A stretch of DNA of 64,000 bases from Escherichia coli (GTDB lineage: Bacteria > Pseudomonadota > Gammaproteobacteria > Enterobacterales > Enterobacteriaceae), in the NCBI RefSeq assembly GCF_016903815.1, contig NZ_CP069973.1, one strand, 5' to 3'. Made by a program: the position numbers and the translations under genes. This document shows, one piece after another, positions 9,055 through 63,344 of the stretch; position 1 is the first letter of the stretch, and every line of letters starts with the position of its first letter. A model generated the notes under the pieces. That model saw only the letters and a program-made list of their open reading frames with translations, had not been told where the DNA came from and did not search any database.

Positions 9055-9201
9055 GACTGACCTCTGAAATGAACGTACGGTGTTATTGATAATGATGGAA
9101 GGTATGCAGTGACTGTTCAGGGAATGACGTAGCCGTATATTTAGTTTTCTGTTCAACATATTGTCTCCATACCTGTCGGGACGGCTTTGGCAGGCCGGCG
9201 A

Positions 9202-9882: not shown

Positions 9883-10084
9883 AGATGTGCACTCCGTAAG
9901 AAAACATCTTTTATTTCATGATGTTATTATGCCTCATGGTGTTGAAAGGATGTGTCGTATCTGAATAATCAGGAATAAAATGCAGCAGAAAAAATATTCC
10001 TTTAATTATCTGATTTTTAATGATGATTTCATAAAAAGAAGAATACTCATTAATCCAGCGACACATCCTGTCGGCGTGAGTGTG

Positions 10085-24357: not shown

Positions 24358-24526
24358 CTGATTCGTCATTCCCTTCGTCCCGCCAGTCACTGGTGTTTGT
24401 ATCGTACCGTCCGGTGTTGATGTGCGTTTTCCGTGTGTCTGCACCGGCTTAACAAAATTCAACAGGGTTTGAAAAGGAACATTTCGTGCAAATAACCGAA
24501 GCCTTAATTTCAGAGCCGGGAGACAT

Positions 24527-24891
24527 CCGGCGTTTTGTTCAGCAGGCGCTGGAGTTCTTTAATCTGCTTCATGGCAGCAGCAAGTTCAGAGGCAGGAACG
24601 ACCTGTTCTCCTGCGGCCACAGCAGTAAGACTTCCCTCCTGGTATTGCTTGCGCCAGAGAAATAACTGGCTGGCTGCCACACCGTGTTGCCGGGCAACAA
24701 GGGAGACCGTCATTCCCGGTTCAAAGCTCTGCTGAACAATAGCGATCTTTTCCTGTGTAGTACGCCGTCTGCGTTTCTCCGGTCCTAAGACATCAATCAT
24801 CTGTTCTCCAATGACTAGTCTAAAAACTAGTATTAAGACTATCACTTATTTAAGTGATATTGGTTGTCTGGAGATTCTGGGGGCTAGTCTA
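24527..24891 (-). mobile_element. IS2 fragment (left end with truncated insC)
   Basis: Near-identical to the IS2 left end seen intact at 53024; InsC translation diverges after LQRLL; terminal GGGGGCTAGTCTA. Confidence 0.85.
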
Positions 24892-31965: not shown

Positions 31966-33769
31966 GAGTAGGAGGCGGGATCACTCCCGCCGTCCTCTCA
32001 CACCACCGTACGTGCGGTTCCGCATACGGCGGTTCATGTTAACTCTGGAACTGCCTCTACTGTTCCAGCAGTGATATCAGACCCTGCCTCCTGAACCATG
32101 CATTCTTTATCGCCTGATTCATATGGCTTGACCCTGAGTTCCACCATGGCCCGTGGTTGTTGTACGCAGAGATCATTGCCCTGTCCTTACTCAGTCCTGC
32201 TCTTTGCAGATTCTTTGCCCGGGTTCGCGGTCTCTTCCACTGCCGCTACAACAAGCAACGCAGTTTCCGTTTGATCCAGCCATCCAGCTCCTCCAGCACT
32301 CCTCTGACTTCCGTCAGCCTGAAGTAGCTTATCCATCCACACAGCACTGGTGTCAGAGCATTGATTGTCGCTTTCACTGATTTGCTCCGGTTTCCCGTCG
32401 TCAGACTGTGGACTTTCTCCTTCAGCCTGTTCACGCTCGTCAGGGCTATCTTCAGCTTCGCCTGTTTGTGCCATGTCACACTGTACCCGAGGAACTTCCG
32501 ATCCCACGGGCGCGCCACCGCGCTCTTCTTCTCATTCACCTTCAGTTTGTTCTCCACGAACGCCCTGATGTTCTTCAGCAGATGGTCGCCCGCTTTCCGG
32601 CTGCTTACGTAGATGTTGCAGTCGTCTGCGTAGCGGCAGAAGCTGTGTCCACGACGCTCTAGTTCTTTATCCAGTTCATCCAGCAGGATGTTCGACAGTA
32701 ACGGCGACAGTGGGCCGCCCTGCAGCATGCCCGCCTGCCGTTTCTCCCTTTGCCCGTCTTTAACCATTTCCACTTTCAGGTAGCGGCGTATCAGTCACAG
32801 CACCCGCCTGTCCTTTATCGTTCTGGCCAGACGCGTCATCAGGAGTCTGTGATCCACCCGGTCGAAGAACTTCTCCAGATCCATATCCACCACCCACCGT
32901 TTGCCACCCCGTATGTAACGCTGTGCCTGTTGCACCGCCTGCTGGATAAGCCTGTCCACCACCGTCGGGATGCCTGAGGTTCTCACGCCGCCATCCGGCT
33001 TCGGGATATCCATCCGGCGTATTGCCCGCGGCTGGTAGTTTCCGTCAATCAATGCCTGCCTGACGCTGCGCCAGTTCTTCTTCAGCCACGGTTTCAACTC
33101 CGCCACGCTGAGGTTATCCACCCCCGCCGTGCCTTTGTTTTCCAGCACGCGCTGATAAGCCAGCATCAGGTTTTCTCTCGTTATCACCGCTTCCATCGTC
33201 AGCGGCACTTCCGCTTTCGTTTGCCCACCCGCCGCCGTGCTGATTTCAGCGCCATCATGCAGCCCTGACGGATACTGTCCGTCTCCTCTGCCGCTGGTCG
33301 CAGTTGCCTGCGCTTGTGCTTCATTAATCATCATCGGGTTCGGATGTCCTAATCACAGTTAATCATGTTCGGCCCTTCATGCTGCCGGTTTTGCAGCACT
33401 ACTACGGCGTCGGCTGACTTCTGCCGCCCCATCCCGGCGCCTCACGGCGCCGGTAGCACACTGGCAGGGCGACAGATCTCCCGGGGTAATTCACGTGACT
33501 TTCCTGCTTATGCCTGTCGGCTTTACGTCACAGCGTTCCGTGTGAGTATCGGGCTTTGGTGATTTGTGCCACCTTACCCTGCTGCGCCGCCTTAACCGCT
33601 TCCTGTTCGTCAGGCCAGCATTTTGCATCCAGCTTCCTTCAGATTTCACCTCGCGATGAACACCCTTGCCTTCCGCTAACACTTCCCCTCACCGGGTGTG
33701 TGGAGGACTTTCACCTCTTAGTCGTTCTTCTGCCACCACAGTTGAAGAACAGCGCCAGTCACGGCGCAC
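31966..33769 (-). mobile_element. Degenerate group II intron (class C-like) inserted after a terminator hairpin
   Basis: 5' end GTGCGCC immediately after hairpin 33771..33810; domain V-like CCGTATGCGGAACCGCACGTACGG near 32000; disrupted RT ORF inside. Confidence 0.65.
32246..33334 (-). pseudogene. Group II intron reverse transcriptase, disrupted (in-frame stop, internal deletion, C-terminal truncation)
   Basis: Two abutting ORFs (179 and 175 aa) with RT motifs FCRYADDCNIY and GGPLSPLLSNILLDELD. Confidence 0.8.
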
Positions 33770-38488: not shown

Positions 38489-39064
38489 TTAATGAATAAT
38501 GCTAGTGCCCATTTGAGTAATAAAGTGACGTAATATTGCTGGATGCCCCATCCAGGTAGTCGCGGTTATTAAATTACCATCCACAATGGCTTCATCATCT
38601 GCGGCAGTGACCCACTGGCCACCCGCCATTTCCACTTCCGGTTTTACCGTAAAATATCCCGTCAGTTTCCGGCCTTTTAATACCCCAGCAGCGGCCAGAA
38701 TTTGTGGGCCATGACAAATTGCAGCAACAGGTAATGTTAAATTCATCGCGTAATGCACGATATCCAATACTGACTTATTTAATCGCAAGTATTCCGATGA
38801 ACGCCCACCAGAAATATAAACACCACTATATTCCTGTAACCTTATGTCATCAAATGATGCAGTTAATCTAAAAAGATGTCCGGGTTTTTCGGTGTAGGTC
38901 TGATCACCTTCAAAATCATGAATCGCGGTTTTAATAAACTCGCCGGTACGTTTTCCCGGACACACTACATCCACTCTGAAACCTAACATGTTTAATGCCT
39001 GCCATGGCACCATGACTTCATAGTCTTCAGAGAAATCGCCTGTGATAAGTAATATCTTCTTCAT
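38489..39064 (-). CDS. DJ-1/PfpI-family protein
   Basis: Nucleophile-elbow motif AICHGPQIL; start at internal Met MKKILLITGD. Confidence 0.7.
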   Translation of the reverse strand: MKKILLITGDFSEDYEVMVPWQALNMLGFRVDVVCPGKRTGEFIKTAIHDFEGDQTYTEKPGHLFRLTASFDDIRLQEYSGVYISGGRSSEYLRLNKSVLDIVHYAMNLTLPVAAICHGPQILAAAGVLKGRKLTGYFTVKPEVEMAGGQWVTAADDEAIVDGNLITATTWMGHPAILRHFITQMGTSIIH

Positions 39065-39074
39065 AAGCGGACTC

Positions 39075-39374
39075 TCAAAACTGGTTATCGTCTTCCTCAA
39101 TGATTCGCATGGCTTCATGCACCGCCGCGACTTCGCCAAAAATGGCCAATGTGGTGATATGCTGAGGGCAACTGCCAAAGATTTCTGATACCACCACATT
39201 GGCGCTTTTACTGGCTACGTCGGCATAAAAATAGAGATCCGGAACCGGCAGTATTAACAAACCAATGGCGTCGATGCGAATCAAATCCAAACGCGAACGA
39301 AACTCCCCGGGCATACGCCGTTTCAACATAGCCAAAATATCCGGGGTCGGTGCGTTTATGATTCGTTTTTTCAT
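39075..39374 (-). CDS. EutS/PduU-type permuted BMC shell protein, GrpU-like, with GSCPQ motif
   Basis: Permuted BMC pattern similar to EutS; GxCPQ motif associated with Fe-S binding in GrpU. Confidence 0.7.
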   Translation of the reverse strand: MKKRIINAPTPDILAMLKRRMPGEFRSRLDLIRIDAIGLLILPVPDLYFYADVASKSANVVVSEIFGSCPQHITTLAIFGEVAAVHEAMRIIEEDDNQF

Positions 39375-39397
39375 CTTTAAGTCACCCTTCGCGATAG

Positions 39398-40915
39398 TTA
39401 GCGAATATTCAGCGCTTCAACCATTACACAGCGACGACGGCGTGCAAACGAACGCGCTGACGTAAGTCCCTCGCCGGTCGGTCCGGCAATCGTAAAGGTG
39501 GCATGCCCTTCACCGCCCACCCCCAGCCCTGCATAAGAGGGACCATTTTTAACAAAGATGGTGGTCTGGATCAGGCGCGCCATTTTGGTCAGCTTTTCGA
39601 CGTTGGTGGAGTGCATAACCGCGGTATGACGATTGCCGTGCTCCACTTTCACCGCCAGCTCAATGGCTTCATCAACATTGTCTACGCGCACCACCGGCAG
39701 GACCGGCATCATCAGCTCATGCACCACAAACGGATGTGTTTTCTCAGCCTCAATTAAGATGACTTTGATATCGTCGCCAACCTGGATTCCCAGTTGTTGC
39801 AGGATATAGCGCGCATCTTTGCCGACAAAGGCGGTATTCGGCCCAGTGCCTTTTTCATTAAGCACCAACGATTGCAGTTGTTGACTTAACTTCTTATCGC
39901 ACAACAGATAGGCACCGCTTTTCTTCATGCAGTGAATCAGATAGTCCGCTACCTGGTTCACAACAATCACCTCTTTTTCCGCCACGCACGGCAGGTTGTT
40001 GTCGAAGCTACAGCCCTTAATGATGTCGCGGGCTGCTTTTTCGATATCCGCCGTTTCATCTACCACAGCTGGCGGGTTACCTGCGCCTGCACCAATCGCT
40101 TTTTTACCTGATGACATCACGGTTTTCACGATGGCTGGACCGCCAGTCGCTACCAGCATGTTGATACGTGGGTCGTTGATCAGGACGTTGGTATTGTCGA
40201 TGGACGGTTTGGTCACCGTTACCACCATGTTAGCCGGTGCGCCCAACTGGGCAAGCTTGTTGTTGATCAGCTCAACCGCGTACAGCGACACTTTGCGCGA
40301 GCGCGGATGTGGACTGAACACCACAGTGTTGCCTGCCGCCAGCATGCCTATGCTGTTGTTGATAATGGTTTCGGTCGGGTTAGTCGTTGGTGTAATCGAA
40401 CCAATCACTCCGAACGCAGAGTATTCGATCAACGTTAAACCCCCGTCTCCGGAAACCGCGCTGGTGGTCAGATCTTCGATACCTGGCGTTTTCAGCGCTG
40501 CGACGCGGTTTTTGATCAGTTTGTCCTCGTAATTCCCCATGCCGGTCTCTTCCACCGCCATACGGGAAAGGGCACACAGCACATCTTCCTGCAGGAAGAC
40601 ATCGCGAATGCCATTGATAAACGAGGCGCGGTCTTGCATAGAACAGTGGCGATACTGCACTTGTGCCAAGACGGCGGCGGAAATCGCCTCATCCATGGTA
40701 TCGAATGCTCCAGTGCTAGCATTCGCTACCTTCGCTACCTGAGAGATCGCACTGGCGTCGCGCACGGAAGAGTGCTGCGCCAACGCCTTAGCGACAATTT
40801 CATCCAACCCGTCGACCCGCGCTGCTTCTGACGTGGCGGGAGCTTCATCCGGTGTTGCTTTGGTGAATTTGCTCAGAATGGTCGAGACAGCCTGAGCGAT
40901 TTCAATATCATTCAT
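39398..40915 (-). CDS. CoA-acylating aldehyde dehydrogenase (PduP/EutE family)
   Basis: 505-aa aldehyde dehydrogenase-like sequence with N-terminal extension typical of encapsulation peptides. Confidence 0.85.
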   Translation of the reverse strand: MNDIEIAQAVSTILSKFTKATPDEAPATSEAARVDGLDEIVAKALAQHSSVRDASAISQVAKVANASTGAFDTMDEAISAAVLAQVQYRHCSMQDRASFINGIRDVFLQEDVLCALSRMAVEETGMGNYEDKLIKNRVAALKTPGIEDLTTSAVSGDGGLTLIEYSAFGVIGSITPTTNPTETIINNSIGMLAAGNTVVFSPHPRSRKVSLYAVELINNKLAQLGAPANMVVTVTKPSIDNTNVLINDPRINMLVATGGPAIVKTVMSSGKKAIGAGAGNPPAVVDETADIEKAARDIIKGCSFDNNLPCVAEKEVIVVNQVADYLIHCMKKSGAYLLCDKKLSQQLQSLVLNEKGTGPNTAFVGKDARYILQQLGIQVGDDIKVILIEAEKTHPFVVHELMMPVLPVVRVDNVDEAIELAVKVEHGNRHTAVMHSTNVEKLTKMARLIQTTIFVKNGPSYAGLGVGGEGHATFTIAGPTGEGLTSARSFARRRRCVMVEALNIR

Positions 40916-40975
40916 CTTTAAATTCCTTACTACTCTTCATCTGCCGACCGCGCCGCGTGCATCGTCATCAGATGC

Positions 40976-41761
40976 TTAGATATATGGCGTCGTGGTGGAT
41001 TTAATTTCCACCGGATCTAACGTGGAGAGCAGTTGTAGACCGACTTCACGCGCGGCAATCACCGCCTGACGTACTGCACCGGAATCACCGGAGAAGGTGA
41101 AGATCACTTCGTTACTAAAGCTGGTGCCTTGCGACGGGCTGGCATAACCCACCGGGTCAATCACGGCGGATTTCGCCGCAGCGTCGGCAATCACCAGGCC
41201 AATCGCCGCAGGCGAGGCACAGGTCATCCCGAAGGATTTACCAATCGGCGCACCCAGCGCTTTATTCAGCGCGTAGCTGGCACGAGCGGTGTACTGGAAT
41301 TCAAGATGTCCGGCTGACGAGCCATAAACGTCACCCATGGTGCGTTCAATTTCAGACAGCGCCACTTCAACCGCACGCCTGACGTCGGAAACATCAGACG
41401 CACCGAAAATAATTAAGCAACCGTGTCCGCCACCTCCTTCGGTATCGCGGGCCAGCTCAATAGAAATAATTTCGCTGTTGGTTGCTTTAATCGCTTCGTC
41501 AGCCGCAAAAATTTGCGGGCCTGCGCCAGTACGTGCGCCAAGAATACCGATAGAGCGATATTTCTTGTCGATATTCATGACTTCATGCAATTGATTATCA
41601 ACATTGGCAATCACTAGGCCGATAGTGTGGCCCAACGCAGTGCCGACAAATTCCGTAATACCGCAACCAGCGAAATTCGCTGCTGTTTTAGCTTCCGGTG
41701 AGATATCGGTTTGTTTATTCATTACGTCAGATATAATCTGCTCAACAAGATTATCTCTCAT
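40976..41761 (-). CDS. Tandem-BMC-domain shell protein (BMC-T, PduB-like)
   Basis: 261-aa protein with PduB-like N-terminus MRDNLVEQIISDV. Confidence 0.75.
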   Translation of the reverse strand: MRDNLVEQIISDVMNKQTDISPEAKTAANFAGCGITEFVGTALGHTIGLVIANVDNQLHEVMNIDKKYRSIGILGARTGAGPQIFAADEAIKATNSEIISIELARDTEGGGGHGCLIIFGASDVSDVRRAVEVALSEIERTMGDVYGSSAGHLEFQYTARASYALNKALGAPIGKSFGMTCASPAAIGLVIADAAAKSAVIDPVGYASPSQGTSFSNEVIFTFSGDSGAVRQAVIAAREVGLQLLSTLDPVEIKSTTTPYI

Positions 41762-41782
41762 GATCAGTATCCTTTATTGTTA

Positions 41783-42064
41783 TTAACCGATAGCCTTCGG
41801 TAGAATTTTTTCCACCTCAATGTGTGGGCGTGGAATAACATGTACGGAGACCAGTTCTCCCACTTTACTCGCAGCAGCGGAGCCCGCATCTGTCGCGGCT
41901 TTCACTGCGCCAACGTCGCCGCGAACCATCACAGTCACCAAGCCGGAGCCGATTTTTTCATAACCCACTAGGGTCACGTTGGCAGATTTCACCATGGTAT
42001 CTGCAGCTTCAATTGCAGAAACCAGACCTTTCGTTTCAACCATTCCTAATGCTTCTTGTTGCAT
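41783..42064 (-). CDS. BMC-H shell protein (PduA/PduJ-like)
   Basis: [45 protein letters not shown] canonical BMC domain; start at internal Met. Confidence 0.9.
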
Positions 42065-42348
42065 AACGACCTCAATATTTCCGATAGAAAGAAAACGTGC
42101 ACAGAGGAATAGCAATCTACGGATTCACCCATGTGCATTAATTATTTAATTATCATAATGCTAAGGTTATTCAGACAAAATGTTTTGCGCGTCAGTGGGA
42201 CTATCTTGCTTTTGCATTCCCGCAATTGACAATAAAATCCACCCGAGGTTTGTAATAAAAGATCTGCGTTTAAACTTCCTTGCAAAATAGCCCCGCTCTG
42301 AATAGCGATCATAATTACTGTTAAAACTGTCGTATTTTTGCCAATTAG

Positions 42349-43545
42349 TTATGCCGTGCGGGCAATCTCCGCTGCATCTATAGCAATCATTTTTTCTTCA
42401 TTGGTTGGGATGACCGCAATCTTCGTGGTGTCGGTTTTAGAAATCAGTCCGCTACGTCCGCCGAACAGCTGCTGGTTACGTTCTTTATCCAGTTCCAATC
42501 CCAGCGCCTGAAGGCGTTGCACGGTAAGTTCTCGAATTAACGCCGAGTTTTCGCCAATTCCACCGGTGAAAATCAGCGCATCGAAGCGTTTAAGCGAGGT
42601 CACGTGGCCGCCGATATGTCGTGCGAGACGATGTACTAACACGTCGATGGCTAACGCTGCCCGTTCGTGGCCCTCATCACGCGCCTGCTGAAGGGTGCGG
42701 CAATCGCTGGATAAGCCGGAAATCCCCATTAGGCCGGACTGGTTATTGAGCATTTTGTACAGCGTGTCGAATGTTTGACCTGTGCGTTTCGCCAGATATG
42801 CGACGACACCAAAATCAAGATCCCCGCAGCGCGTGCCCATTACCAGCCCTTCCAGCGGGGTCATACCCATTGAGGTGTCAATGCTCGTGCCGTTTTGCAC
42901 CGCACATAGCGATGAACCGTTGCCCAAGTGGGCAATCACGATGCCATGATCCGCCGGGTCGAGATCTAGTGATGCAAGCGCTTCTGCGGCAATATAGCGG
43001 TGAGATGTTCCGTGAAAGCCGTAACGTCGCACCATATAATCTTGCTGGAACTCCAGCGGGATCGCATAGGTGTAAGCAGCCGGAGACAAGGTCTGGTGGA
43101 ACGCAGTATCGAACACCGCAATATGCGGCAACGCGGGCAACAGAGCCCGAGCCGCTTCAATACCAATCAGGTTGGCAGGGTTATGCAAAGGGGCCAGCAC
43201 CGACAGCGCGCGGACTTTTTCGATCACATCATCGGTAACCAGTACTGATCTTTTGAAGTCGCTGCCGCCATGAGCCACGCGGTGCCCAACGGCGTTGATG
43301 GCTTCCAACAGTTGCTGTTCGTCGAGCTTCGCGAAGAGCACTTTGAGCGCATGCTGATGGCTGGCGTCATCCAGCGCGACAGTGGATTTATGGCCGTCTC
43401 GGTCTTTAAACGTTATGACAGCATGATCAATACCCAGTCGTTCCGCTAGGCCCGACAGCAACGGCTGATCTGCATCCTGAGGAATGACGGAGAATTTCAT
43501 TGATGAGGAACCACAATTAATCACTAATACACAAGCTAAAGACAT
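42349..43545 (-). CDS. Acetate/propionate kinase (AckA/PduW family)
   Basis: VLVINCGSSSMKFSV N-terminal motif; start codon at 43543..43545. Confidence 0.85.
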   Translation of the reverse strand: MSLACVLVINCGSSSMKFSVIPQDADQPLLSGLAERLGIDHAVITFKDRDGHKSTVALDDASHQHALKVLFAKLDEQQLLEAINAVGHRVAHGGSDFKRSVLVTDDVIEKVRALSVLAPLHNPANLIGIEAARALLPALPHIAVFDTAFHQTLSPAAYTYAIPLEFQQDYMVRRYGFHGTSHRYIAAEALASLDLDPADHGIVIAHLGNGSSLCAVQNGTSIDTSMGMTPLEGLVMGTRCGDLDFGVVAYLAKRTGQTFDTLYKMLNNQSGLMGISGLSSDCRTLQQARDEGHERAALAIDVLVHRLARHIGGHVTSLKRFDALIFTGGIGENSALIRELTVQRLQALGLELDKERNQQLFGGRSGLISKTDTTKIAVIPTNEEKMIAIDAAEIARTA

Positions 43546-46727: not shown

Positions 46728-47846
46728 CTAGCCGGTAATCAGGTCGATCAACCCTTCGACATCATGCGTCGTCACCTGCCGCGGGTTCGACGCGGTACAA
46801 CCGTCGGCCAGCGTCGAATTCACCAGTGCGCTGCGCAACTCGATGATTTTTGCACGGTCGATACCCAGTTCGCTGAGAGTGACGGGGATGCAGAAATGGC
46901 GATTGATCTGGCGGATCTCCTGAGTCATCAGCGCGATGGCCTGCTCCGGTACCGCATGGTCAATGCCTATGATTTGCGCGCAACGGTGATAGCGATCGCG
47001 GGTTTCAGTGCTGGCCCGTTTGCTGTTGAAGTCGATGACAATCGGCAGCAGCATGGCGTTAATTTTGCCATGAGGAATATGCAGCATCCCGCCGATGGCG
47101 TGTGCCATGCCGTGTACCAACCCCAGCCCGGCGGAGTTAAATGCCATGCCTGCCATACAGGAGGCATTGTGCATGTGGGTGCGCGCCGCAATGTCTTTTT
47201 CGTCGTTAAACACCTGCGGCAGATAGCGCCAGGTCAACGCGATGGCTTTTTCCGCCAGCGCATCGCTAAAGTCATTTGAGCCAGTAGAGACAAAGGCTTC
47301 AATGGCATGGGTCAGCACGTCCATGCCGGTATCTACCGCGACATGACGCGGCGCGGTTAACACTAGGTTAGGATCGAGAATGGCGATTTCCGGCACCAGT
47401 TGCCCGGAGATCAACGGATATTTGCGGCCATTTTGCGGATCAGAGATGATCGCGTAGGACGTCACTTCAGAGCCGGATCCGCTGGTTGTGGGAATAGCAA
47501 TGAGATCGATTTGATGATCTCCAAAATACTCTTCCAATGTGACTTTAATTCCTTTCGCAGCGTCCAGCGACGAGCCGCCGCCGAGGGCGATAATAACGTC
47601 GGGCTTAAAGGCTTTAAAACGCGCCGCGCCGGAAGTCAGAATATCAATATCTGGATCCGGAGTAACCTCGCCGAAAATGCATACCGATGCCTCAGGCATA
47701 TGGCTTATTAAATAACGAGTTTTACCTGATGACATCATAAAATCATCGGTGACAATACCGACTCGTTTATTATTAAATTGGCATAGAGAGGTTATTGCCT
47801 CTTCACCAAAATAAATTTTGGGGCACGAAAAATAATAGCGGGCCAT
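46728..47846 (-). CDS. Iron-containing alcohol dehydrogenase (PduQ/EutG-like), first gene of the operon
   Basis: GGGSSLDAAK and His-rich metal site (HGMAHAIGGMLHIPHG). Confidence 0.85.
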   Translation of the reverse strand: MARYYFSCPKIYFGEEAITSLCQFNNKRVGIVTDDFMMSSGKTRYLISHMPEASVCIFGEVTPDPDIDILTSGAARFKAFKPDVIIALGGGSSLDAAKGIKVTLEEYFGDHQIDLIAIPTTSGSGSEVTSYAIISDPQNGRKYPLISGQLVPEIAILDPNLVLTAPRHVAVDTGMDVLTHAIEAFVSTGSNDFSDALAEKAIALTWRYLPQVFNDEKDIAARTHMHNASCMAGMAFNSAGLGLVHGMAHAIGGMLHIPHGKINAMLLPIVIDFNSKRASTETRDRYHRCAQIIGIDHAVPEQAIALMTQEIRQINRHFCIPVTLSELGIDRAKIIELRSALVNSTLADGCTASNPRQVTTHDVEGLIDLITG

Positions 47847-48064
47847 GTGTAACTACCTTAATCATGGTAAACGACCAAATTTGATGTCGTTAACCTAACA
47901 TGGCGATTTTTTTAATGGACTGAGGATGTTTGTGCAGGTGAAGGATTATTTTGCGGTATTGTTTTGCCTTGAGCAAAAAAGTCCTTTTCTAGGAAATACC
48001 TAAAATCTGATACAGTCAAACTCAATATTTATTGTCAGAGAATGAATAAAAGCGGGGTGTTTTT

Positions 48065-48703
48065 TTGCCGCTGCACTGCTTCAGGAATGTATTCACCCCT
48101 CATAAAGGCTTCAATGACTCTCCGCCATGGCAAACATGCCATAGGGGGAGATTTTCAGATAATGATAATAATGTTCGCCCACATCCGATTGTAAATGGAT
48201 CAGAAAAACGGCCGCGTATTGCCCTGCTGAATGTGGATTACGTCACCAGTTTTGAACTGCCTTTTCGCTTGCTGCTTACCCGGACACCACAACTGATTGC
48301 CGCGCTGCGTGAAGAATGGGGCATCAGCCAGAAAAATGTGGTGTTTAACGATAAACGGTTTGGTTGCGTGTACAGCCTGAAGGCCAGCCTTTCTGGTGTG
48401 CCGGATACATTCCGGTATCATCTGTCTCACCGTATTCGTCGCGTGGTTGGGAATGAAAACACATCATTGCCATATCAGCAGGTTGCCCGGGAAGTGAAAG
48501 CGCCCCGTGAACGGCTGAAGTATGCACTGGAGGCGGGTTTACTGGTGACTGCACTGGACGGCCTGTTCTGGTTTGGCAGTCAGCGTATTGCGGCTGATGT
48601 TCTGAGGCTGAGAAAGGCCGGAATGCCGGTGGTGACCACGACCGTGGAGGTGCACGATAACCTGACAGGAACAACCCGCAAAGTACCGGCATACCATCTC
48701 TGA
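48065..48703 (+). CDS. Hypothetical protein (start uncertain)
   Basis: 212-aa ORF, no family recognised. Confidence 0.4.
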   Translation: MPLHCFRNVFTPHKGFNDSPPWQTCHRGRFSDNDNNVRPHPIVNGSEKRPRIALLNVDYVTSFELPFRLLLTRTPQLIAALREEWGISQKNVVFNDKRFGCVYSLKASLSGVPDTFRYHLSHRIRRVVGNENTSLPYQQVAREVKAPRERLKYALEAGLLVTALDGLFWFGSQRIAADVLRLRKAGMPVVTTTVEVHDNLTGTTRKVPAYHL

Positions 48704-48798
48704 TACAACCATCAAGGGGAATATTGCTCTGGCAGCAGCAGTACGACATTCTTTATACTTTATCCCCGTGCCTGAAAATATGTGCTAAGGAAACGGGA

Positions 48799-49032
48799 AT
48801 GGCAAGGTCCGATTATGATATTATTAATCTGTCTCTGAAACATGAACTGAATGAGTGGCTGACAGAGAGAGGTTATGCCGGACTGGCGGATAACCGGAAC
48901 CGCTTGGCAGAGGTGGTTACCCGGAAATTGCAGGACAGCTTTTATATAAACGTTTCCTGGGATGCGCTGAACACGGCATACAGTGAACACCCTGAGTGGT
49001 TTTCAGGGCTTGTCTCCGGAGATGAGAATTAA
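48799..49032 (+). CDS. Small hypothetical protein (77 aa from the Met with AAGGA Shine-Dalgarno; ORF extends to 48724)
   Basis: ORF with plausible ribosome-binding site. Confidence 0.4.
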   Translation: MARSDYDIINLSLKHELNEWLTERGYAGLADNRNRLAEVVTRKLQDSFYINVSWDALNTAYSEHPEWFSGLVSGDEN

Positions 49033-49084
49033 TAAGTGGATTATGCTGCCATCAGGCAGTGTGATTGCCGGCAGGGATTTCGTT

Positions 49085-49276
49085 TTATTCTGTTTCTTCC
49101 CGGGGGGCGGGTTTGAATTTTCCCAGAAAGTTGTACATCGGTCGCATGCAGGGATGCGGATAGCCGTCCCGCATAAACACCACCCGGGTTTCCTCAACAC
49201 TGGTCACGGTGACAAGCGCACCATGATCGTCTTTGTATCGCTGATTGACTTTCGGTAATGGAACATCTTCTGACAT
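49085..49276 (-). CDS. Small hypothetical protein (63 aa)
   Basis: ORF only. Confidence 0.35.
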   Translation of the reverse strand: MSEDVPLPKVNQRYKDDHGALVTVTSVEETRVVFMRDGYPHPCMRPMYNFLGKFKPAPREETE

Positions 49277-49906
49277 AAATTTTAGTACGGTAACAGTTAA
49301 CTAAATTTTCATGTGGTAGCACTGAATCAGGAGACTGCGTTTCCTGATGTGCGCTGTTAATTTTCTGTTTTTACGAAACATTTTCCCCTTCTTCCTGTAT
49401 ATTTTATTGCGCTCCTCCTTTCATGTCCTTCCCATATCCTGAAACTCACTTAAATGCTGTTGAATCGTCATGCATTGCAATTTTCAATGACTGAAATCAA
49501 AAATTGCTATTTTTTTAGCTAACCAACTGTATTAAAAGCATTCAGTGGAATAATTTTCTGCACTTTTCCATTAATTATGGTTATAAATTTTGCAATGTGC
49601 TGTTTTTGCGATATATGGCAGAATAAAGAACTGTTCATTTGTGTTATATCGATCGATAAATCTGTCACATTGCTGTAGTTCAGATCATTATTCTATAATG
49701 ATCAAAAATAAGTCAGCTAAAAATTGGCAGATTTATTGCTCAGCATTCTGGTACCGGTTGATGCGGGTAAATACCGGAAGGGCGGTAGCGTGCCATCGCA
49801 AAACATGGTGGGAGGTATCGTCAGGAGGCTGGTGATTGTTGGTATGACATGAATAAAAGGTTTTTCGTTTGACTGGAAAATTATGTTGCAGGAACGAGAG
49901 GGCTGA

Positions 49907-50257
<351 letters not shown>

Positions 50258-50357
50258 CCACTTCAGTTTTTTTATTTCTGAATAAAGCGACATCCACGAT
50301 ATAACGTCGTGGGTGTCGGTGATGATTCTTTTTTTGTTCGCAGATTAAGGTGCGTTT

Positions 50358-52145
<1,788 letters not shown>

Positions 52146-52538
52146 TACCGGACCATTTCTTTATTCCGGACTTTCCCCATACTGTTATTATCAGGTTTAT
52201 TTAATTCGCCATGAACCCGTTATTTAACGATATTCAGATGCGTCTTTTTCATCTGAACCACTCGCCGTACTCCTGGTACTGGAATGTAAGATTCATACCT
52301 CTGGAAGCCGTGTATATTGGCAACGATACCTGTCATATCACCATTACCTGTAATCAGTCCGGTTTTCACTGAGCGTTATATCAGAAACCTTAATGAGCTG
52401 TTACCGGTTCTGAAACGGCGGTGGGATGTGACACCGGCAATCATCTGCGCAGTGGAATACCTTTCCTGGGTAACGGTATCGCACTGACTCTCTCCCTATA
52501 ATTAACAATGGTTTAATACCTAAACACTGAATCTGCCG

Positions 52539-52979
52539 ATGACTTCTGAAGTGAAACTGAAAACCGGTGGTGACCCCCGGTCATTACCGGATTATGCTGC
52601 CCTGCGCGATGAAATCAGCAAACTGACCCACCCGGCACGCCCTGATGTGGACTGGCGTTACGTGGAAACGCTCTGCCTGCGTCTGTATGAACACAATGGC
52701 GTGGAATTACAGACGGCATCCTGGTACACCATTGCCCGGATGCATACAACAGGGTTAAGTGGTCTGAATGAAGGGCTGGCTCTGATTGCTGCGCTGACCC
52801 GGCATCACTGGTCAGTGATGTGGCCGCTGAATACACACTCCCGGCTGGAAATTATTACCGGTCTGTTCAACCGTCTGCAAAAAACGCTCCGGGCCATGCC
52901 TCCGGATAACCGTGACAACCTGCCCCTGCTGTATCAGACCGAAACATTCCTGAAGACACTGAGTGATCTCCTTCCATGA
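52539..52979 (+). CDS. ImpA_N-domain protein (T6SS-associated TssA/VasL-like N-terminal domain)
   Basis: [40 protein letters not shown] fits the remembered ImpA_N pattern. Confidence 0.45.
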
Positions 52980-53114
52980 AAATACGCAGGCTTGGCACGA
53001 ACTTAAACAGAGCAGTAAAGTGGTAGACTGGCCCCCTGAATCTCCAGACAACCAATATCACTTAAATAAGTGATAGTCTTAATACTAGTTTTTAGACTAG
53101 TCATTGGAGAACAG

Positions 53115-53480
53115 ATGATTGATGTCTTAGGGCCGGAGAAACGCAGACGGCGTACCACACAGGAAAAGATCGCAATTGTTCAGCAGAGCTTTGAACCGGG
53201 GATGACGGTCTCCCTCGTTGCCCGGCAACATGGTGTAGCAGCCAGCCAGTTATTTCTCTGGCGTAAGCAATACCAGGAAGGAAGTCTTACTGCTGTCGCC
53301 GCCGGAGAACAGGTTGTTCCTGCCTCTGAACTTGCTGCTGCCATGAAGCAGATTAAAGAACTCCAGCGCCTGCTCGGCAAGAAAACGATGGAAAATGAAC
53401 TCCTCAAAGAAGCCGTTGAATATGGACGGGCAAAAAAGTGGATAGCGCACGCGCCCTTATTGCCCGGGGATGGGGAGTAA
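53115..53480 (+). CDS. insC: IS2 transposase InsC (orfA)
   Basis: [56 protein letters not shown]. Confidence 0.95.
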
Positions 53481-54343
53481 GCTTAGTCAGCCGTTGTCTC
53501 CGGGTGTCGCGTGCGCAGTTGCACGTCATTCTCAGACGAACCGATGACTGGATGGATGGCCGCCGCAGTCGTCACACTGATGATACGGATGTGCTTCTCC
53601 GTATACACCATGTTATCGGAGAGCTGCCCACGTATGGTTATCGTCGGGTATGGGCGCTGCTTCGCAGACAGGCAGAACTTGATGGTATGCCTGCGATCAA
53701 TGCCAAACGTGTTTACCGGATCATGCGCCAGAATGCGCTGTTGCTTGAGCGAAAACCTGCTGTACCGCCATCGAAACGGGCACATACAGGCAGAGTGGCC
53801 GTGAAAGAAAGCAATCAGCGATGGTGCTCTGACGGGTTCGAGTTCTGCTGTGATAACGGAGAGAGACTGCGTGTCACGTTCGCGCTGGACTGCTGTGATC
53901 GTGAGGCACTGCACTGGGCGGTCACTACCGGCGGCTTCAACAGTGAAACAGTACAGGACGTCATGCTGGGAGCGGTGGAACGCCGCTTCGGCAACGATCT
54001 TCCGTCGTCTCCAGTGGAGTGGCTGACGGATAATGGTTCATGCTACCGGGCTAATGAAACACGCCAGTTCGCCCGGATGTTGGGACTTGAACCGAAGAAC
54101 ACGGCGGTGCGGAGTCCGGAGAGTAACGGAATAGCAGAGAGCTTCGTGAAAACGATAAAGCGTGACTACATCAGTATCATGCCCAAACCAGACGGGTTAA
54201 CGGCAGCAAAGAACCTTGCAGAGGCGTTCGAGCATTATAACGAATGGCATCCGCATAGTGCGCTGGGTTATCGCTCGCCACGGGAATATCTGCGGCAGCG
54301 GGCTTGTAATGGGTTAAGTGATAACAGATGTCTGGAAATATAG
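53438..54343 (+). CDS. insD: IS2 transposase InsD (orfB)
   Basis: 301-aa ORF with the IS3-family DDE core; overlaps insC in the frameshift arrangement. Confidence 0.95.
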
Positions 54344-54355
54344 GGGCAAATCCAA

Positions 54356-55084
54356 GTGGCTTTACCGGAAGCCATGGTGAAGGGATATATCACCCGCCTG
54401 GAGAACCAGCCTGTGCAGGGGGAAGTATCGTCTCCGGTAACGCTACTGGCGCAGGCACTCAGGCTTGAAGCTCCGGATGTGCAGGAACATCAGACCCTGC
54501 CGCACTCCCGTCTGGTGTATGTTGTTTCTGAAACAAAAACAGAGCCCACACTCTTCCTTCAAAAATCCCCGCTCACGTTTCTGAAAACGTTTGTTACAGG
54601 TGTCTGTACGGCATTGCTGGCGGTCTGCGTGGCCATTCCGGGATGGCAGTTTCTGACACAGCCATCACCGGCGGAGCAGCAACTCAGGGCGCTGCTGACA
54701 CCCTCACCGGATGTGCTTTCAGCAGACCAGATGATGCAGCTCAGCAGAACACTGTTAAATCATGCGTCAGAGTGGATAACCCTTTCCGGTCAGCAGATAA
54801 CGCGACTGACAGAATTCCCCCCGGCATACAACCTGCAACGCAGTGTGCAATTGCTGCAGCAACTGATGGTACTTTTCCCCGACAATCCTCGTGTTCAGGA
54901 AATGGTGGATAACTGGCAGAAGAGTGCAAGGAGTCGTGCGCTCCCGGAAGAGGCGATGACTGGCTGGAACGAAGGCATGACCCGCTTACAGCTGTTGGCT
55001 GAGCGCCTGAACCGTCCGGATGAACAGCGGGGAAAATACATGACGGTCAGTGAGCTGAAAACGGAGGTGTCTGGCATCATGTAG
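54356..55084 (+). pseudogene. Membrane protein gene split by IS2 (5' 60 bp at 52964..53023, remainder here); possible VasL-like C-terminal part
   Basis: Reading frame is continuous across the IS2 target duplication; contains a transmembrane segment. Confidence 0.55.
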
Positions 55085-55275
55085 GCTTTTAACCGGCATA
55101 TCCTGGCAGAAGAACAGTTGTGTCACTATGGTGAAGTCCGCAACCAGAATGGAAGCGAGCAGCAGCAAAAACAAATGAAAGATGCATTTGTTAAGCTGAT
55201 TCACGTTTACTGTTTTATATAAAGCCTTTAGGATGTGGGGGAAGGGGAGTGTTGCAATTTATTCGGTGAGATAGT

Positions 55276-56123: not shown

Positions 56124-57356
56124 ATGAATGATAATTTTTTAACGGAGAAAGTCCTTACTGGAGAGAATGTTCTGCGTGCAGCAATTGCTCGTATTGAGTG
56201 GATTTTTGAAATATTTCCATCAGTTTGTCTCTCTTTTTCCGGTGGTAAAGATTCCACCGTGCTTTTCCATCTTGTGGCTGATGTGGCCCGCAGGAAAAGA
56301 CGTCGTTTCTCTGTACTGTTCATTGACTGGGAGGCTCAGTACCAGTGCACCATTGAACATATTCAGAAGATGCGGGAAATGTACCATGATGTGACGGAAA
56401 CCTTTTACTGGGTGGCGCTTCCCCTGACCACGGTAAACGGTGTCTCGCAGTTTCAACCGGAGTGGATATGCTGGGAGCCTCGTGTGACCTGGGTTCGCCA
56501 GCCACCGGAAGAGGCCATTACGGATATGGCGTATTTTCCCTTTTACCGGTATGCCATGACGTTTGAAGAATTTGTTCCGGCATTTTCTTCCTGGTTTGCT
56601 GGCAACCGGTGTGGAGTGGCAGTGCTGACCGGTGTCCGGGCGGATGAATCCCTCAACCGCTTTATGGGACTGGTGTCCCAGCGCAAACTGAGATATGCCG
56701 ATGATAAGCCTTGGACCACGGCATCGCCTGAAGGGTTTTACTACACTATGTATCCGCTGTATGACTGGAAAACTCGTGATATCTGGATATATCACACCAG
56801 AACCCGTGCCATCTACAATCCCCTGTATGATCTGATGTACCGTGCCGGCGTACCGTTACGCAACATGCGTGTCTGTGAACCTTTTGGTCCTGAACAACGT
56901 AAGGGACTGTGGCTTTACCATGTTCTGGAACCGGAAACCTGGGCCAGGATGTGTGAGCGGGTGTCAGGGGCTGCCAGCGGGGCACTTTATGCCAATGAAA
57001 GCGGGGCTTATTTTGCCCTGCGTAAGCGCATATCAAAACCAGCCCATCATACCTGGCGCAGCTATGCGATGTTTCTGCTGGATGTGATGCCGGAAAGAAC
57101 GGCAGAACATTACCGCAACAAGATAGCTGTCTATCTGCGCTGGTATCAGACGCGGGGCTTCCCGGATGACATCCCGGATGAACAGGAGAATGACCTGGGG
57201 AGCCGGGATATTCCGTCCTGGCGACGTATCTGTAAGACTCTCATAAAGAATGATTTCTGGTGCCGTACCCTCTCCTTCAGTCCGAACAAACCCCGGCACT
57301 ATGAACGTTATCTGCAGCGTATGAAAGAAAGGAGGAAGGAATGGGGGATTCTGTGA
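56124..57356 (+). CDS. PAPS-reductase-family PP-loop protein with C-terminal extension (IbrA/YbdN-like)
   Basis: PP-loop motif SFSGGKDST; 410 aa; followed by an overlapping ParB-like gene. Confidence 0.75.
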   Translation: MNDNFLTEKVLTGENVLRAAIARIEWIFEIFPSVCLSFSGGKDSTVLFHLVADVARRKRRRFSVLFIDWEAQYQCTIEHIQKMREMYHDVTETFYWVALPLTTVNGVSQFQPEWICWEPRVTWVRQPPEEAITDMAYFPFYRYAMTFEEFVPAFSSWFAGNRCGVAVLTGVRADESLNRFMGLVSQRKLRYADDKPWTTASPEGFYYTMYPLYDWKTRDIWIYHTRTRAIYNPLYDLMYRAGVPLRNMRVCEPFGPEQRKGLWLYHVLEPETWARMCERVSGAASGALYANESGAYFALRKRISKPAHHTWRSYAMFLLDVMPERTAEHYRNKIAVYLRWYQTRGFPDDIPDEQENDLGSRDIPSWRRICKTLIKNDFWCRTLSFSPNKPRHYERYLQRMKERRKEWGIL

Positions 57357-57979
57357 CACCGGAGATACTGAGCAACATGATTCGTCAGTACTTCAGCCAG
57401 GAACGACCAGAAGAAGAGGCCATACAGGCCCTGAATCATCTGCGCAGGGTGCTTCATGAGGTCAGTCCATTTGCACAGGAGCCTGTGGACTGTGTGCTGT
57501 GGGTGAAAGCAGATGAGGTGGTGGCCAACGATTATAACCCCAATGTCATGGCGCCGGGTGAGAAGAAACTGCTGAAACATTCACTGGAGCAGGATGGGTT
57601 CACGCAGCCTGTGGTTGTCTCGGAAGAGAAGGAGCATTATCTGGTCGTGGATGGTTTTCATCGTCAATTACTGGGCAGGGAAGCAGGTACGGGAAAACGC
57701 CTGAAGGGCTGGTTGCCAGTGACCTGTATTAATCCGGAAAGAAAGGGACAGGCCTCACGTATTGCTGCAACCATTAGACATAACCGGGCCAGGGGGAAGC
57801 ACCAGATAACTTCAATGTCTGATATTGTCAGGGACCTGTCGCGGCTGGGCTGGACGGATGAACGTATTGGTACGGAGCTGGGTATGGACCAGGATGAAGT
57901 TCTCAGGTTGAAACAGATTAGCGGGCTGACGGAGCTGTTTCTGGAAGAGGATTTCAGTCCGGCATGGACGATTCGCTGA
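57341..57979 (+). CDS. ParB-like nuclease-domain protein (IbrB/YbdM-like)
   Basis: ParB/Srx-type motif VVDGFHRQ; 16-bp overlap with the upstream gene. Confidence 0.7.
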   Translation: MGDSVTPEILSNMIRQYFSQERPEEEAIQALNHLRRVLHEVSPFAQEPVDCVLWVKADEVVANDYNPNVMAPGEKKLLKHSLEQDGFTQPVVVSEEKEHYLVVDGFHRQLLGREAGTGKRLKGWLPVTCINPERKGQASRIAATIRHNRARGKHQITSMSDIVRDLSRLGWTDERIGTELGMDQDEVLRLKQISGLTELFLEEDFSPAWTIR

Positions 57980-58018
57980 GACCGTCATATATGTATATTA
58001 TTTCAGTGAGTTAATGTT

Positions 58019-58327
58019 TTGAGCAGGAAAAAGAGTACCCCGGAAGTCGTGGAATACATGGTTGCACAGAAGCTGGAGGCTGCGGGTTGCTGGCGCAGAG
58101 CTTCCGCCCGCTGGCTTTTTGTTATGGGAAATGTTGAATGTACAGAAGCACAACGGGAGTGGTTGTTGTTGCGCAGGAATTATTGCCTGGCGCAGATATC
58201 GTCCCCGCCGCTACCTGAAAAGCTGGATATCAGCGAAGTGGCGAAAGCTGCAGATGCCACGCTGAGGCGAATGGGGATTGCCAGTCCGTCCGGGGAGGTA
58301 TTCAGAAAAGGTACACCGGTCTGTTGA
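58019..58327 (+). CDS. PerC-family transcriptional regulator-like small protein; start uncertain (TTG 58019 or ATG 58058)
   Basis: KLEAAGCWRRASARW resembles the conserved PerC-family core; from memory. Confidence 0.5.
   Translation: MSRKKSTPEVVEYMVAQKLEAAGCWRRASARWLFVMGNVECTEAQREWLLLRRNYCLAQISSPPLPEKLDISEVAKAADATLRRMGIASPSGEVFRKGTPVC

Positions 58328-60604: not shown

Positions 60605-63344
<2,740 letters not shown>

What the first reader, a model, noticed from the sequence alone, without database searches (positions are those of the whole stretch)
48065..49276. Three small unrecognised genes between the microcompartment operon and an IS3 fragment
ORFs of 212, 77 and 63 aa with no recognisable domains lie next to a transposase fragment and upstream of the NERD-helicase gene. 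Small accessory genes near defence genes may be regulators, toxins or anti-defence factors.
Basis: seen in the sequence. Interest (0 to 1): 0.35.

Follow-up and report, generated by a model that had tools for sequence, protein, structure and literature searches.

The report
Relic genes beside a deleted secretion system
The three small ORFs are real but ordinary: a broken DNA-binding gene, an E. coli-only orphan gene and a small RgdR-family gene. In intact islands they sit just upstream of a type VI (or two-partner) secretion gene cluster, and here they touch the NERD-helicase defence gene only because the DNA between them was deleted.

Summary
The ORFs exist at the stated coordinates, but two of the three do have recognisable families.

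- **ORF1 (48065-48703)** is a chimera. Only 48197-48703 is homologous, to the ECs1377 family (NCBIfam NF052300, E 6e-85), and it lacks the first 39 codons. RefSeq calls it a pseudogene.
- **ORF2 (48799-49032)** is the 77-aa orthologue of Sakai ECs_1378. It is an Escherichia-restricted orphan under purifying selection.
- **ORF3 (49085-49276, minus strand)** is a DUF4222 protein (E 2e-23). It is the orthologue of ECs_5415, one of the 63-aa "RgdR truncates" already described in the literature.

The trio is a conserved island module found in 1352 of 5426 complete E. coli genomes. In EAEC 042 and STEC307 it lies directly upstream of tssB, and the published Fur/Dam-controlled sci1 promoter sits between ORF3 and tssB. 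The window keeps that promoter (49277-49716).

Two rearrangement scars flank the trio:
- About 23.6 kb carrying the grp microcompartment locus cut off the 5' end of ECs1377.
- An IS3-associated deletion removed the secretion cargo, placing the trio next to the NERD helicase. In STEC307 that helicase lies 28.9 kb away, between tssE and vasL.

Only 27% of trio-bearing genomes have the helicase adjacent. No defence, toxin or anti-defence signature was found. A regulatory role is plausible but untested. Interest is low.

The parts
24486..24569 (+). Left scar: the N-terminal 28-29 codons of the UCP030791-family 'phage-derived' gene that normally precedes ECs1377. It is followed by a transposase fragment and the inserted ~23.6-kb segment (RND pseudogene, TetR, HTH, grpS...grpA).
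   Evidence: tblastn of the O157 169-aa and Ec-91 182-aa proteins gives 79% and 71% identity over 28-29 aa. RefSeq has a pseudogene 'missing C-terminus' at the same place. The intact backbone order is seen in Ec-91.
48065..48196 (+). Chance in-frame 5' extension of ORF1 (44 codons, TTG start), made of grp-side intergenic DNA. It is not part of any conserved gene.
   Evidence: The alignment with full-length loci shows no homology upstream of about 48197-48201. The NCBIfam match begins at ORF residue 44. The only other in-frame starts are GTG 48233 and TTG 48269.
48197..48703 (+). 5'-truncated ECs1377-family gene (codons 40-207 of 207). It is a pseudogene of a winged-helix DNA-binding protein.
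48799..49032 (+). Intact 77-aa gene, orthologue of Sakai ECs_1378 (WP_000124185.1). It is an orphan with no detectable family.
   Evidence: AAGGA sits 8-12 nt upstream of the ATG. There are 132 homologue clusters, essentially all Escherichia, and natural variants are at least 82% identical. dN/dS is 0.11-0.56. No hit in Pfam, NCBIfam, PHROGs, PADLOC or PDB profiles.
49085..49276 (-). Intact 63-aa DUF4222 gene, orthologue of Sakai ECs_5415 (a 63-aa 'RgdR truncate'). It is a predicted SH3/Tudor-like small barrel and is transcribed divergently from the sci1-type promoter.
49277..49716 (+). Conserved AT-rich intergenic region homologous to the experimentally characterised sci1 (T6SS-1) promoter of EAEC 042. 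It has a -10 TATAAT at 49694-49699, a fur1-like box at 49694-49712, and GATC sites at 49651, 49683 and 49700.
   Evidence: Window 49206-49716 is 79% identical to nt 1-514 of the published 595-bp fragment. The EAEC box scores 13/19 as published, and the window box scores 12/19. Homology with T6SS-type loci stops at 49716.
49717..49998 (+). Two-partner-secretion leader with an exact RfaH ops element (GGCGGTAGCGTG, 49781-49792), followed by the first 14 codons of tpsB (49956-49998). The gene is then cut off.
   Evidence: 96-98% identical to O157 and OkiPb01697 TPS-type loci. The N-terminus [14 protein letters not shown] matches the annotated POTRA proteins. ops is the single match in the window against 0.08 expected. 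The Rfam JUMPstart match is sub-threshold, 21.3 bits against 35.
49995..50266 (+). 3' fragment of an IS3-family (IS911-like) transposase gene. This is the right-hand deletion scar.
   Evidence: rve_3 E 1.7e-9. Up to 99.6% identical to the ends of IS911-family transposase genes (H108-H110). Homology to the STEC307 locus resumes at 50267.
50358..52145 (+). NERD-UvrD helicase gene (context, not part of the trio). It is a candidate single-gene defence protein.
   Evidence: Pfam NERD plus UvrD domains. PADLOC PDLC01087 'NERD+UvrD', E 4e-140. In STEC307 it lies between tssE/PD-Lambda-1 and vasL.
52539..55084 (+). vasL (last gene of the T6SS-1 cluster), split by IS2 (about 53024-54353). It is the only T6SS gene left.
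   Evidence: RefSeq annotates ImpA_N and VasL fragments plus IS2. Window 50267-53023 and 54354-55173 are collinear with STEC307 L023 38957-41729 and 41724-42549.

Best explanation
The three ORFs are the orthologues of O157 Sakai ECs_1377, ECs_1378 and ECs_5415. They form a conserved three-gene backbone module of E. coli pheU/pheV/serX-type genomic islands. In intact islands the module ends at a shared AT-rich control region, the Fur/Dam-switched sci1 promoter. That promoter drives either a T6SS-1 cluster (EAEC 042, STEC307) or a two-partner-secretion operon (O157, OkiPb01697).

In this genome, which is the pheU island of a human-associated E. coli lineage, the module is a relic between two rearrangement scars.

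(i) About 23.6 kb carrying the grp glycyl-radical propanediol microcompartment locus replaced the 3' part of the upstream UCP030791-family gene and the first 39 codons of ECs1377. What remains is a pseudogene that merely reads as a 212-aa ORF.

(ii) An IS3-family-associated deletion removed the secretion cargo after codon 14 of tpsB. This fused the module to DNA 91 bp upstream of the NERD-helicase gene, which in STEC307 lies at the far end of the T6SS cluster.

Shown: the gene identities, the truncation, the synteny, the scars, the lack of linkage to the helicase, and purifying selection on the two intact small genes.

Inferred: full-length ECs1377 is a DNA-binding protein with winged-helix domains. 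ORF3 is a small SH3/Tudor-like transcription modulator of the RgdR type. The 77-aa product has no assignable activity. Because the cargo they may once have served is gone, the two intact genes are most likely maintained for a role that does not depend on the helicase.
For: - **Identities:** NF052300 283 bits; DUF4222 82 bits; tblastn 97%, 95% and 95% identity to the O157 genes; Sakai tags confirmed. The literature lists 63-aa RgdR truncates z1197, z1636 and ecs5415 on OI-43, OI-48 and SpLE1.
- **Truncation:** breakpoint at about 48197-48201; RefSeq pseudogene; an extra 7-bp frameshift in AR_0151 while both small genes stay intact.
- **Left scar:** stub of the upstream gene at 24486-24569; uninterrupted backbone in Ec-91.
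- **Synteny with T6SS-1:** EAEC 042; STEC307; at least 190 E. coli genomes; Citrobacter sp. TSA-1; ECs1377 homologue alone in Citrobacter and Kosakonia.
- **Synteny with TPS:** 1256 genomes.
- **Promoter conservation:**
- **Deletion map against STEC307:**
- **Non-linkage to the helicase:** 1352, 614 and 371 genomes.
- **Selection:**
- **Folds:**
Against: - No expression data exist for this strain, so I cannot exclude that the chimeric 212-aa ORF is translated from TTG 48065. It has only a weak G-rich stretch upstream.
- Substitutions in the truncated ECs1377 remnant still look purifying against AR_0151 (dN/dS 0.23). Most of that divergence probably predates the truncation or arrived by recombination, so this does not prove the remnant is neutral.
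- The immediate ancestor of this island is uncertain. It may have carried the TPS operon, the T6SS or both between the trio and the helicase. The window keeps a TPS leader on the left and T6SS-type DNA on the right, so at least one further recombination event is implied.
- Functions of all three proteins are inferred from family, fold and position, not measured. ORF3 lacks the RGD motif, K35 and the basic C-terminal tail that matter in RgdR.
Confidence: 0.82

Rival explanations
1. The trio is a dedicated regulatory module for whatever secretion cargo is fused to the sci1-type promoter (T6SS-1 or TPS). ECs1377 would bind the shared control region through its winged helices. The divergently transcribed DUF4222 protein would modulate transcription, possibly by contacting RNA polymerase as CarD, Mfd and UvrD Tudor-like domains do. 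In this window the module would be an orphaned regulator set, with its promoter now pointing at the helicase gene.
For: - The position immediately upstream of tssB is conserved in E. coli, Citrobacter and Kosakonia.
- A distant homologue (38% identity) overlaps the end of a PAAR gene.
- The same 440-bp control region is kept with both kinds of cargo.
- RgdR, a DUF4222 protein, regulates another secretion system and motility.
Against: - The sci1 promoter was characterised as a Fur/Dam switch without invoking these genes (PMC3145626).
- ECs1377 homologues also occur alone in core-genome contexts (Phytobacter, Pseudocitrobacter), in a prophage next to an integrase and on other mobile DNA.
- DUF4222 genes also occur in lambdoid prophage late regions.
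- Kosakonia and Citrobacter T6SS loci lack the 77-aa and DUF4222 genes.
Confidence: 0.22
2. The small genes are accessories of the NERD-helicase defence gene (regulator, toxin/antitoxin or anti-defence factor).
For: Physical adjacency in 371 to 533 genomes. The helicase matches a candidate defence model. The conserved promoter plus ops element upstream could in principle read through into the helicase gene.
Against: - 73% of trio-bearing genomes lack the adjacent helicase, and 40% of helicase-bearing genomes lack the adjacent trio.
- The two are 28.9 kb apart in STEC307 and about 2 Mb apart in O157.
- The junction is an IS fragment.
- None of the three proteins hits PADLOC.
- ORF2 and ORF3 are convergent, and ORF1 is broken.
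Confidence: 0.03
3. All three ORFs are functionless debris of a decaying island, and the two intact small ORFs have simply not yet been hit by mutations.
For: The surroundings are heavily decayed: pseudogenes, IS2, IS3 and IS1 fragments, and a split vasL. ORF1 is a pseudogene. Many truncated or frameshifted variants of the 77-aa and 63-aa proteins are in the databases. ORF3 has no obvious Shine-Dalgarno sequence.
Against: Nonsynonymous changes are significantly depleted in both small genes (DUF4222 3 of 14, P=1e-5; 77-aa 4 of 13, P=4e-4). Both stay intact in the AR_0151 lineage where the neighbouring remnant acquired a frameshift. Their length is conserved across 1352 genomes.
Confidence: 0.12

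Closest known systems
RgdR (ECs1581, OI-51/Sp7 of E. coli O157:H7), the characterised member of DUF4222
   Same: Same Pfam domain at equal strength (82 bits each). 39% identity across the core. Both are small and encoded on horizontally acquired elements. The 63-aa island copies were already listed as 'RgdR truncates'.
   Different: 63 aa rather than 99 aa. It has no RGD motif (VNQ at the aligned position), T instead of K35, and no basic C-terminal tail. It is encoded next to a secretion-system promoter rather than next to a primase gene in a satellite-like element. The host has no evidence of a LEE target. Its activity is untested.
ECs1377 family (NCBIfam NF052300; phrog_24243)
   Same: The window remnant is 97% identical to residues 40-207 of the name-giving protein and scores above the family cut-off.
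   Different: It lacks the first 39 residues, which are the beta-hairpin and first helix of the model, and is annotated as a pseudogene. The family itself has no known function.
Winged-helix regulators (Pfam HTH_39; MarR/ArsR-type wHTH; Stf76)
   Different: The window and O157 proteins score below Pfam's gathering threshold (15.2 and 18.6 bits against 21.3). There is no whole-protein structural match (best Foldseek E 0.065). A second, central wH-like unit and the N-terminal extension are my reading of the secondary-structure order only.
sci1 (T6SS-1) promoter region of EAEC 042 (Brunet et al. 2011, PMC3145626)
   Same: The trio lies immediately upstream in EAEC 042, and the published fragment overlaps the 5' end of the DUF4222 gene. 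The window keeps the -10, the fur1-like box and three GATC sites.
   Different: In the window the promoter is followed by a TPS leader with an ops element and then by scars, not by tssB. Fur or Dam control here is untested.
RNA-polymerase-binding Tudor-like domains (UvrD/PcrA C-terminal domain, CarD/CdnL and Mfd RID, NusG/Spt5 KOW)
   Different: Sequence identity is only 9-17%. Equally good matches go to histone-reading Tudor domains, FeoA, VapX, HspQ and Hfq-like proteins. No interaction has been tested.

Membership tests
DUF4222 (Pfam PF13973) | Match to the family HMM above the gathering score | tested here: met
   ORF3 scores 82.2 bits against a cut-off of 27, E 1.9e-23, covering profile positions 1-52 of 53.
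RgdR-type regulator (functional subgroup of DUF4222) | RGD tripeptide at RgdR positions 20-22, reported as important for T3SS activation | tested here: not met
   The aligned window residues are V10-N11-Q12. The importance of residue 20 comes from PMC3378721.
RgdR-type regulator (functional subgroup of DUF4222) | Full-length 99-aa architecture with a basic C-terminal tail, and K35 | tested here: not met
   ORF3 ends at residue 63. RgdR residues 75-99 have no counterpart, and K35 aligns to T25.
RgdR-type regulator (functional subgroup of DUF4222) | Activates LEE1/ler and represses motility when expressed | not testable with these tools
   This needs reporter and motility assays. The paper calls the 63-aa copies 'truncates' and reports no assay for them in the passages read.
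ECs1377 family (NCBIfam NF052300, equivalog) | Whole-protein score above the curated cut-off | tested here: met
   283.4 bits against 190.
ECs1377 family (NCBIfam NF052300, equivalog) | Complete protein (about 207 aa) with the native N-terminus | tested here: not met
   The match covers profile positions 24-190 only. Residues 1-39 are replaced by unrelated sequence. RefSeq flags a pseudogene.
HTH_39 winged helix (Pfam PF14090) | HMM match above gathering, plus a winged-helix fold | tested here: inconclusive
Known or candidate anti-phage defence component (PADLOC-DB) | Match to any defence-system protein model | tested here: not met
   No hit at E up to 0.1 for full-length ECs1377, the 77-aa protein, the 63-aa protein or the upstream 169-aa protein. 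The helicase does hit PDLC01087.
Accessory gene of the NERD-UvrD helicase | Conserved co-occurrence and adjacency across genomes | tested here: not met
   The two are adjacent in 371 genomes. That is 371 of the 1352 trio-bearing genomes and 371 of the 614 genomes with the full-length helicase. They are separated by 28.9 kb in STEC307 and unlinked in O157.
Type II toxin-antitoxin pair | Two co-oriented, co-transcribed small genes, one with a toxin fold or family | tested here: not met
   ORF2 and ORF3 are convergent, with 52 bp between their stop codons. No toxin or antitoxin family hit was found. The VapX match of the ORF3 model is one of many SH3-like matches.
sci1-type Fur/Dam promoter | -10 element overlapped by a Fur box, with flanking GATC sites | tested here: met
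   TATAAT at 49694. The box TATAATGATCAAAAATAAG scores 12/19 (EAEC 13/19, as published). GATC sites are at 49651, 49683 and 49700. This shows sequence conservation only; Fur binding and methylation are not testable here.
JUMPstart/ops (RfaH-dependent leader) | ops 12-mer GGCGGTAGnnTG in a 5' leader; Rfam RF01707 above gathering | tested here: inconclusive
   An exact ops element lies at 49781-49792. It is the only one in the window against 0.08 expected. The Rfam score is 21.3 bits against 35.

The most novel reading that the evidence does not exclude
ECs1377, ECs1378 and ECs5415 would be an unrecognised regulatory cassette that travels with the Fur/Dam sci1 promoter and can be coupled to different secretion cargoes (T6SS-1 in some islands, a two-partner secretion operon in others). 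DUF4222 proteins, including RgdR, would be Tudor-like factors that act by contacting RNA polymerase rather than by sequence-specific DNA binding. In this strain the orphaned cassette and its promoter, with an RfaH ops site, would now drive the NERD-helicase gene. That would place a defence gene under iron, methylation and RfaH control.
Probability: 0.15. Interest if true: 0.5.

Novelty: already known. Interest (0 to 1): 0.2.

Why it matters
The direct result is corrective. It removes a false lead (small genes as helpers of a defence gene) and replaces 'unrecognised ORFs' with exact identities: a pseudogene, an orphan and an RgdR-family paralogue.

It also shows how guilt-by-association misleads in decayed genomic islands. 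Here adjacency was created by a 29-kb deletion.

Two modest leads come out of it. First, the best-studied E. coli T6SS promoter (sci1) has a conserved, uncharacterised three-gene neighbour that nobody seems to have tested. Second, the same promoter region is reused in front of a two-partner secretion operon in more than a thousand genomes.

Tried and rejected
- **Family scans:** Pfam, NCBIfam, PHROGs and PADLOC scans of all three proteins. The 77-aa protein hit nothing. PHROGs gave only 'unknown function' families for the other two.
- **PDB sequence and profile searches**: nothing significant.
- **Rfam on 47700-50450**: only a sub-threshold JUMPstart match.
- **Repeat search**: short chance-level repeats, and no terminal repeats marking the junctions.
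- **Promoter and terminator consensus scan**: numbers close to shuffled expectation. It did not list the sci1-type -10, so I do not rely on it.
- **T6SS linkage of ECs1377:** I considered that ECs1377 is strictly T6SS-linked. Standalone, prophage and other mobile-element contexts reject that.
- **Post-truncation decay:** I tried to measure it by comparing two lineages that share the junction. The substitution pattern was uninformative (dN/dS 0.23), and only the 7-bp frameshift is decisive.
- **Not done:** No scan of genome contigs or metagenome contigs, because the cost was not justified for this question.
Full report
**1. What is in the sequence**

The window is E. coli chromosomal DNA, 100% identical over 47800-50400 to many complete genomes, for example NZ_CP103521.1. 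It lies inside the island between tRNA-Phe (pheU) and cadC.

- 48065-48703 on the plus strand (212 aa, TTG start);
- 48799-49032 on the plus strand (77 aa);
- 49085-49276 on the minus strand (63 aa).

To the left is grpA, the first gene of a glycyl-radical propanediol microcompartment locus. To the right are an IS3-family fragment and a NERD-UvrD helicase gene. The same stretch carries many overlapping chance ORFs of similar length, so the case for real genes rests on homology and conservation, not on the ORFs themselves.

**2. Identities**

*ORF1.* It matches the curated ECs1377 family (NF052300, 283 bits against a cut-off of 190), but only from ORF residue 44 and profile position 24. Alignment with full-length loci puts the breakpoint at about 48197-48201, with unrelated DNA upstream of that. 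The ORF is therefore a chimera of 44 chance codons plus codons 40-207 of a 207-aa gene, 97% identical to the O157 protein. RefSeq annotates 48197-48703 as a pseudogene lacking its N-terminus. In a second lineage with the same junction (AR_0151) the remnant also has a 7-bp frameshifting deletion, while both neighbouring small genes stay intact.

*ORF3.* It is a DUF4222 protein (82 bits against a cut-off of 27). That family has a characterised member, RgdR (ECs1581), which activates LEE1/ler and represses motility in O157:H7 (PMC3378721, PMC10877973). ORF3 is 39% identical to RgdR over the core. The RgdR paper already lists 63-aa 'truncates' z1197, z1636 and ecs5415 on OI-43, OI-48 and SpLE1. 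The Sakai annotation confirms the gene order ECs_1377 (207 aa), ECs_1378 (77 aa), ECs_5415 (63 aa, opposite strand). The window trio is orthologous to these.

*ORF2.* It has no family in any library searched. Its homologues are essentially confined to Escherichia at 82% identity or more.

**3. Are the small genes maintained?**

Between the window and other alleles, the 77-aa gene shows 4 nonsynonymous changes out of 13 where about 10 are expected (P=4e-4). DUF4222 shows 3 of 14 against AR_0151 (dN/dS 0.08, P=1e-5). Both are therefore under purifying selection.

The same statistic for the ECs1377 remnant (0.23) is uninformative, because the divergence probably predates the truncation.

**4. Where the trio normally lives**

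The trio is present at 80% coverage or more in 1352 of 5426 complete E. coli genomes.

- In EAEC 042 it lies immediately upstream of tssB (sciH, EC042_4524). The published sci1 promoter fragment (-578 to +18) overlaps the first 71 nt of the DUF4222 gene.
- In STEC307 the order is: ECs1377, 77-aa gene, DUF4222 (opposite strand), tssB through tssE (T6SS-1), a hypothetical gene, a PD-Lambda-1-type GIY-YIG gene, the NERD helicase, a hypothetical gene, vasL, type II Zorya, ibrA-ibrB.
- At least 190 genomes have the DUF4222-tssB junction.
- 1256 genomes instead have the junction seen in the window, where the same intergenic region runs into a two-partner-secretion (tpsB) leader.

Outside E. coli:
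- A degenerate trio sits beside tssB in Citrobacter sp. TSA-1.
- An ECs1377 homologue alone precedes tssB in other Citrobacter and in Kosakonia.
- A 38%-identical homologue follows a PAAR gene.
- Family members also occur alone in core-genome contexts, in a prophage beside an integrase, and on other mobile DNA.
- DUF4222 genes also occur in lambdoid prophages.

**5. Reconstruction of this locus**

*Left side.* The first 28-29 codons of the UCP030791-family gene that normally precedes ECs1377 are at 24486-24569, next to a transposase fragment. The uninterrupted backbone is seen in strain Ec-91: YagK/YfjJ, hypothetical, HTH, hypothetical, UCP030791, ECs1377, 77-aa gene, tpsB. So about 23.6 kb (roughly 24570-48196), including the whole grp locus, replaced about 0.6 kb of backbone and decapitated ECs1377.

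*Right side.* The map against STEC307 and the TPS-type loci is:

| Window coordinates | Matches |
|---|---|
| 48201-49716 | STEC307 8587-10106 (92% identity) |
| 49717-49998 | the TPS leader and 14 codons of tpsB, as in O157 and OkiPb01697 |
| 49995-50266 | an IS911-like fragment |
| 50267-53023 | STEC307 38957-41729 |
| 54354-55173 | STEC307 41724-42549, with IS2 in between |

Relative to STEC307, 28.85 kb (the T6SS-1 core plus PD-Lambda-1) is absent. The trio and the helicase are thus the two flanks of a lost secretion cargo.

**6.

The full-length helicase is in 614 genomes. The trio and helicase are contiguous in 371. That is 27% of trio carriers and 60% of helicase carriers. In O157:H7 strain H2495 the trio and a helicase fragment are about 2 Mb apart (H42, H86). 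None of the three proteins matches PADLOC, whereas the helicase matches the candidate model 'NERD+UvrD'. ORF2 and ORF3 are convergent. I find no support for a defence-accessory, toxin or anti-defence role.

**7. What the proteins probably are**

**8. The control region**

Window 49206-49716 is 79% identical to the sci1 promoter fragment. It keeps the -10 (49694-49699), the fur1-like box (12/19 against 13/19 in EAEC, the number published) and three GATC sites.

Downstream, the TPS leader carries an exact RfaH ops element at 49781-49792. It is the only one in the window, against 0.08 expected. Rfam's JUMPstart model scores below threshold.

Whether transcription from here now reaches the helicase gene is unknown.

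**9. Verdict**

The objects are already annotated and, for the 63-aa gene, already mentioned in the literature. Their biochemical functions are still untested.

The main value of the analysis is the explanation of why these genes sit where they do. A secondary lead is that a conserved, unstudied three-gene module adjoins a model T6SS promoter.

Noticed in passing
window 49277-49716: The AT-rich 'intergenic' DNA right of the finding is homologous to the experimentally defined Fur/Dam-switched sci1 T6SS promoter of EAEC 042 (-10, fur1-like box, three GATC sites). In this window, and in about 1256 E. coli genomes, it is fused to a two-partner-secretion leader instead of tssB. The break in homology lies about 17 nt after the -10.
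   Followed up: yes
window 49781-49792; also L023 16593-16604, L010 17670-17681, L007 16053-16064, L019 1022-1033: An exact RfaH ops element (GGCGGTAGCGTG) lies in the TPS leader. The same motif sits between hcp and clpV/tssH inside T6SS-1 clusters of E. coli, Kosakonia and Citrobacter. This hints at RfaH-dependent antitermination in both kinds of cargo.
   Followed up: partly
window 50358-52145 and L023 37054-41206: The NERD-UvrD helicase (PADLOC candidate PDLC01087) sits in STEC307 in a small defence-gene pocket between tssE and vasL, next to a PD-Lambda-1-type GIY-YIG gene. Type II Zorya follows vasL. The window has lost the PD-Lambda-1 neighbour.
   Followed up: partly
window 52539-55084: vasL, the last T6SS-1 gene, is split by an IS2 copy (about 53024-54353). 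It is the only remnant of the secretion system in this island.
   Followed up: partly
window ~32246-33334 (minus strand): RefSeq annotates two adjacent short 'reverse transcriptase' ORFs (179 and 173 aa) between grpO and grpP, inside the microcompartment locus. This looks like a split or degenerate RT gene of unknown type.
   Followed up: no
window ~56124-58327: ibrA (PAPS reductase-like), ibrB (ParB-like) and a PerC-family regulator follow the scars, as in O157 SpLE1 where the PerC homologue is pchD. The same island backbone is shared between ExPEC-type pheU islands and the O157 serX element.
   Followed up: no
L006 (Sakai Sp7, 1594711-1610171): The element that encodes RgdR has an integrase, small early genes, a primase, and capsid, protease, portal, adaptor and terminase genes, but no tail genes. 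Its layout resembles capsid-forming phage satellites. rgdR lies directly upstream of the primase gene.
   Followed up: no
L016 8001-8615 (metagenome contig SRR7339978_625): A 42%-identical ECs1377-family gene is divergently placed from two small genes and an integrase in a prophage. That is the position usually held by early regulators, which suggests a phage origin for the family.
   Followed up: no
window ~61276-62784: A group II intron reverse transcriptase/maturase (ltrA) lies among IS3 and IS30 fragments near the end of the window.
   Followed up: no
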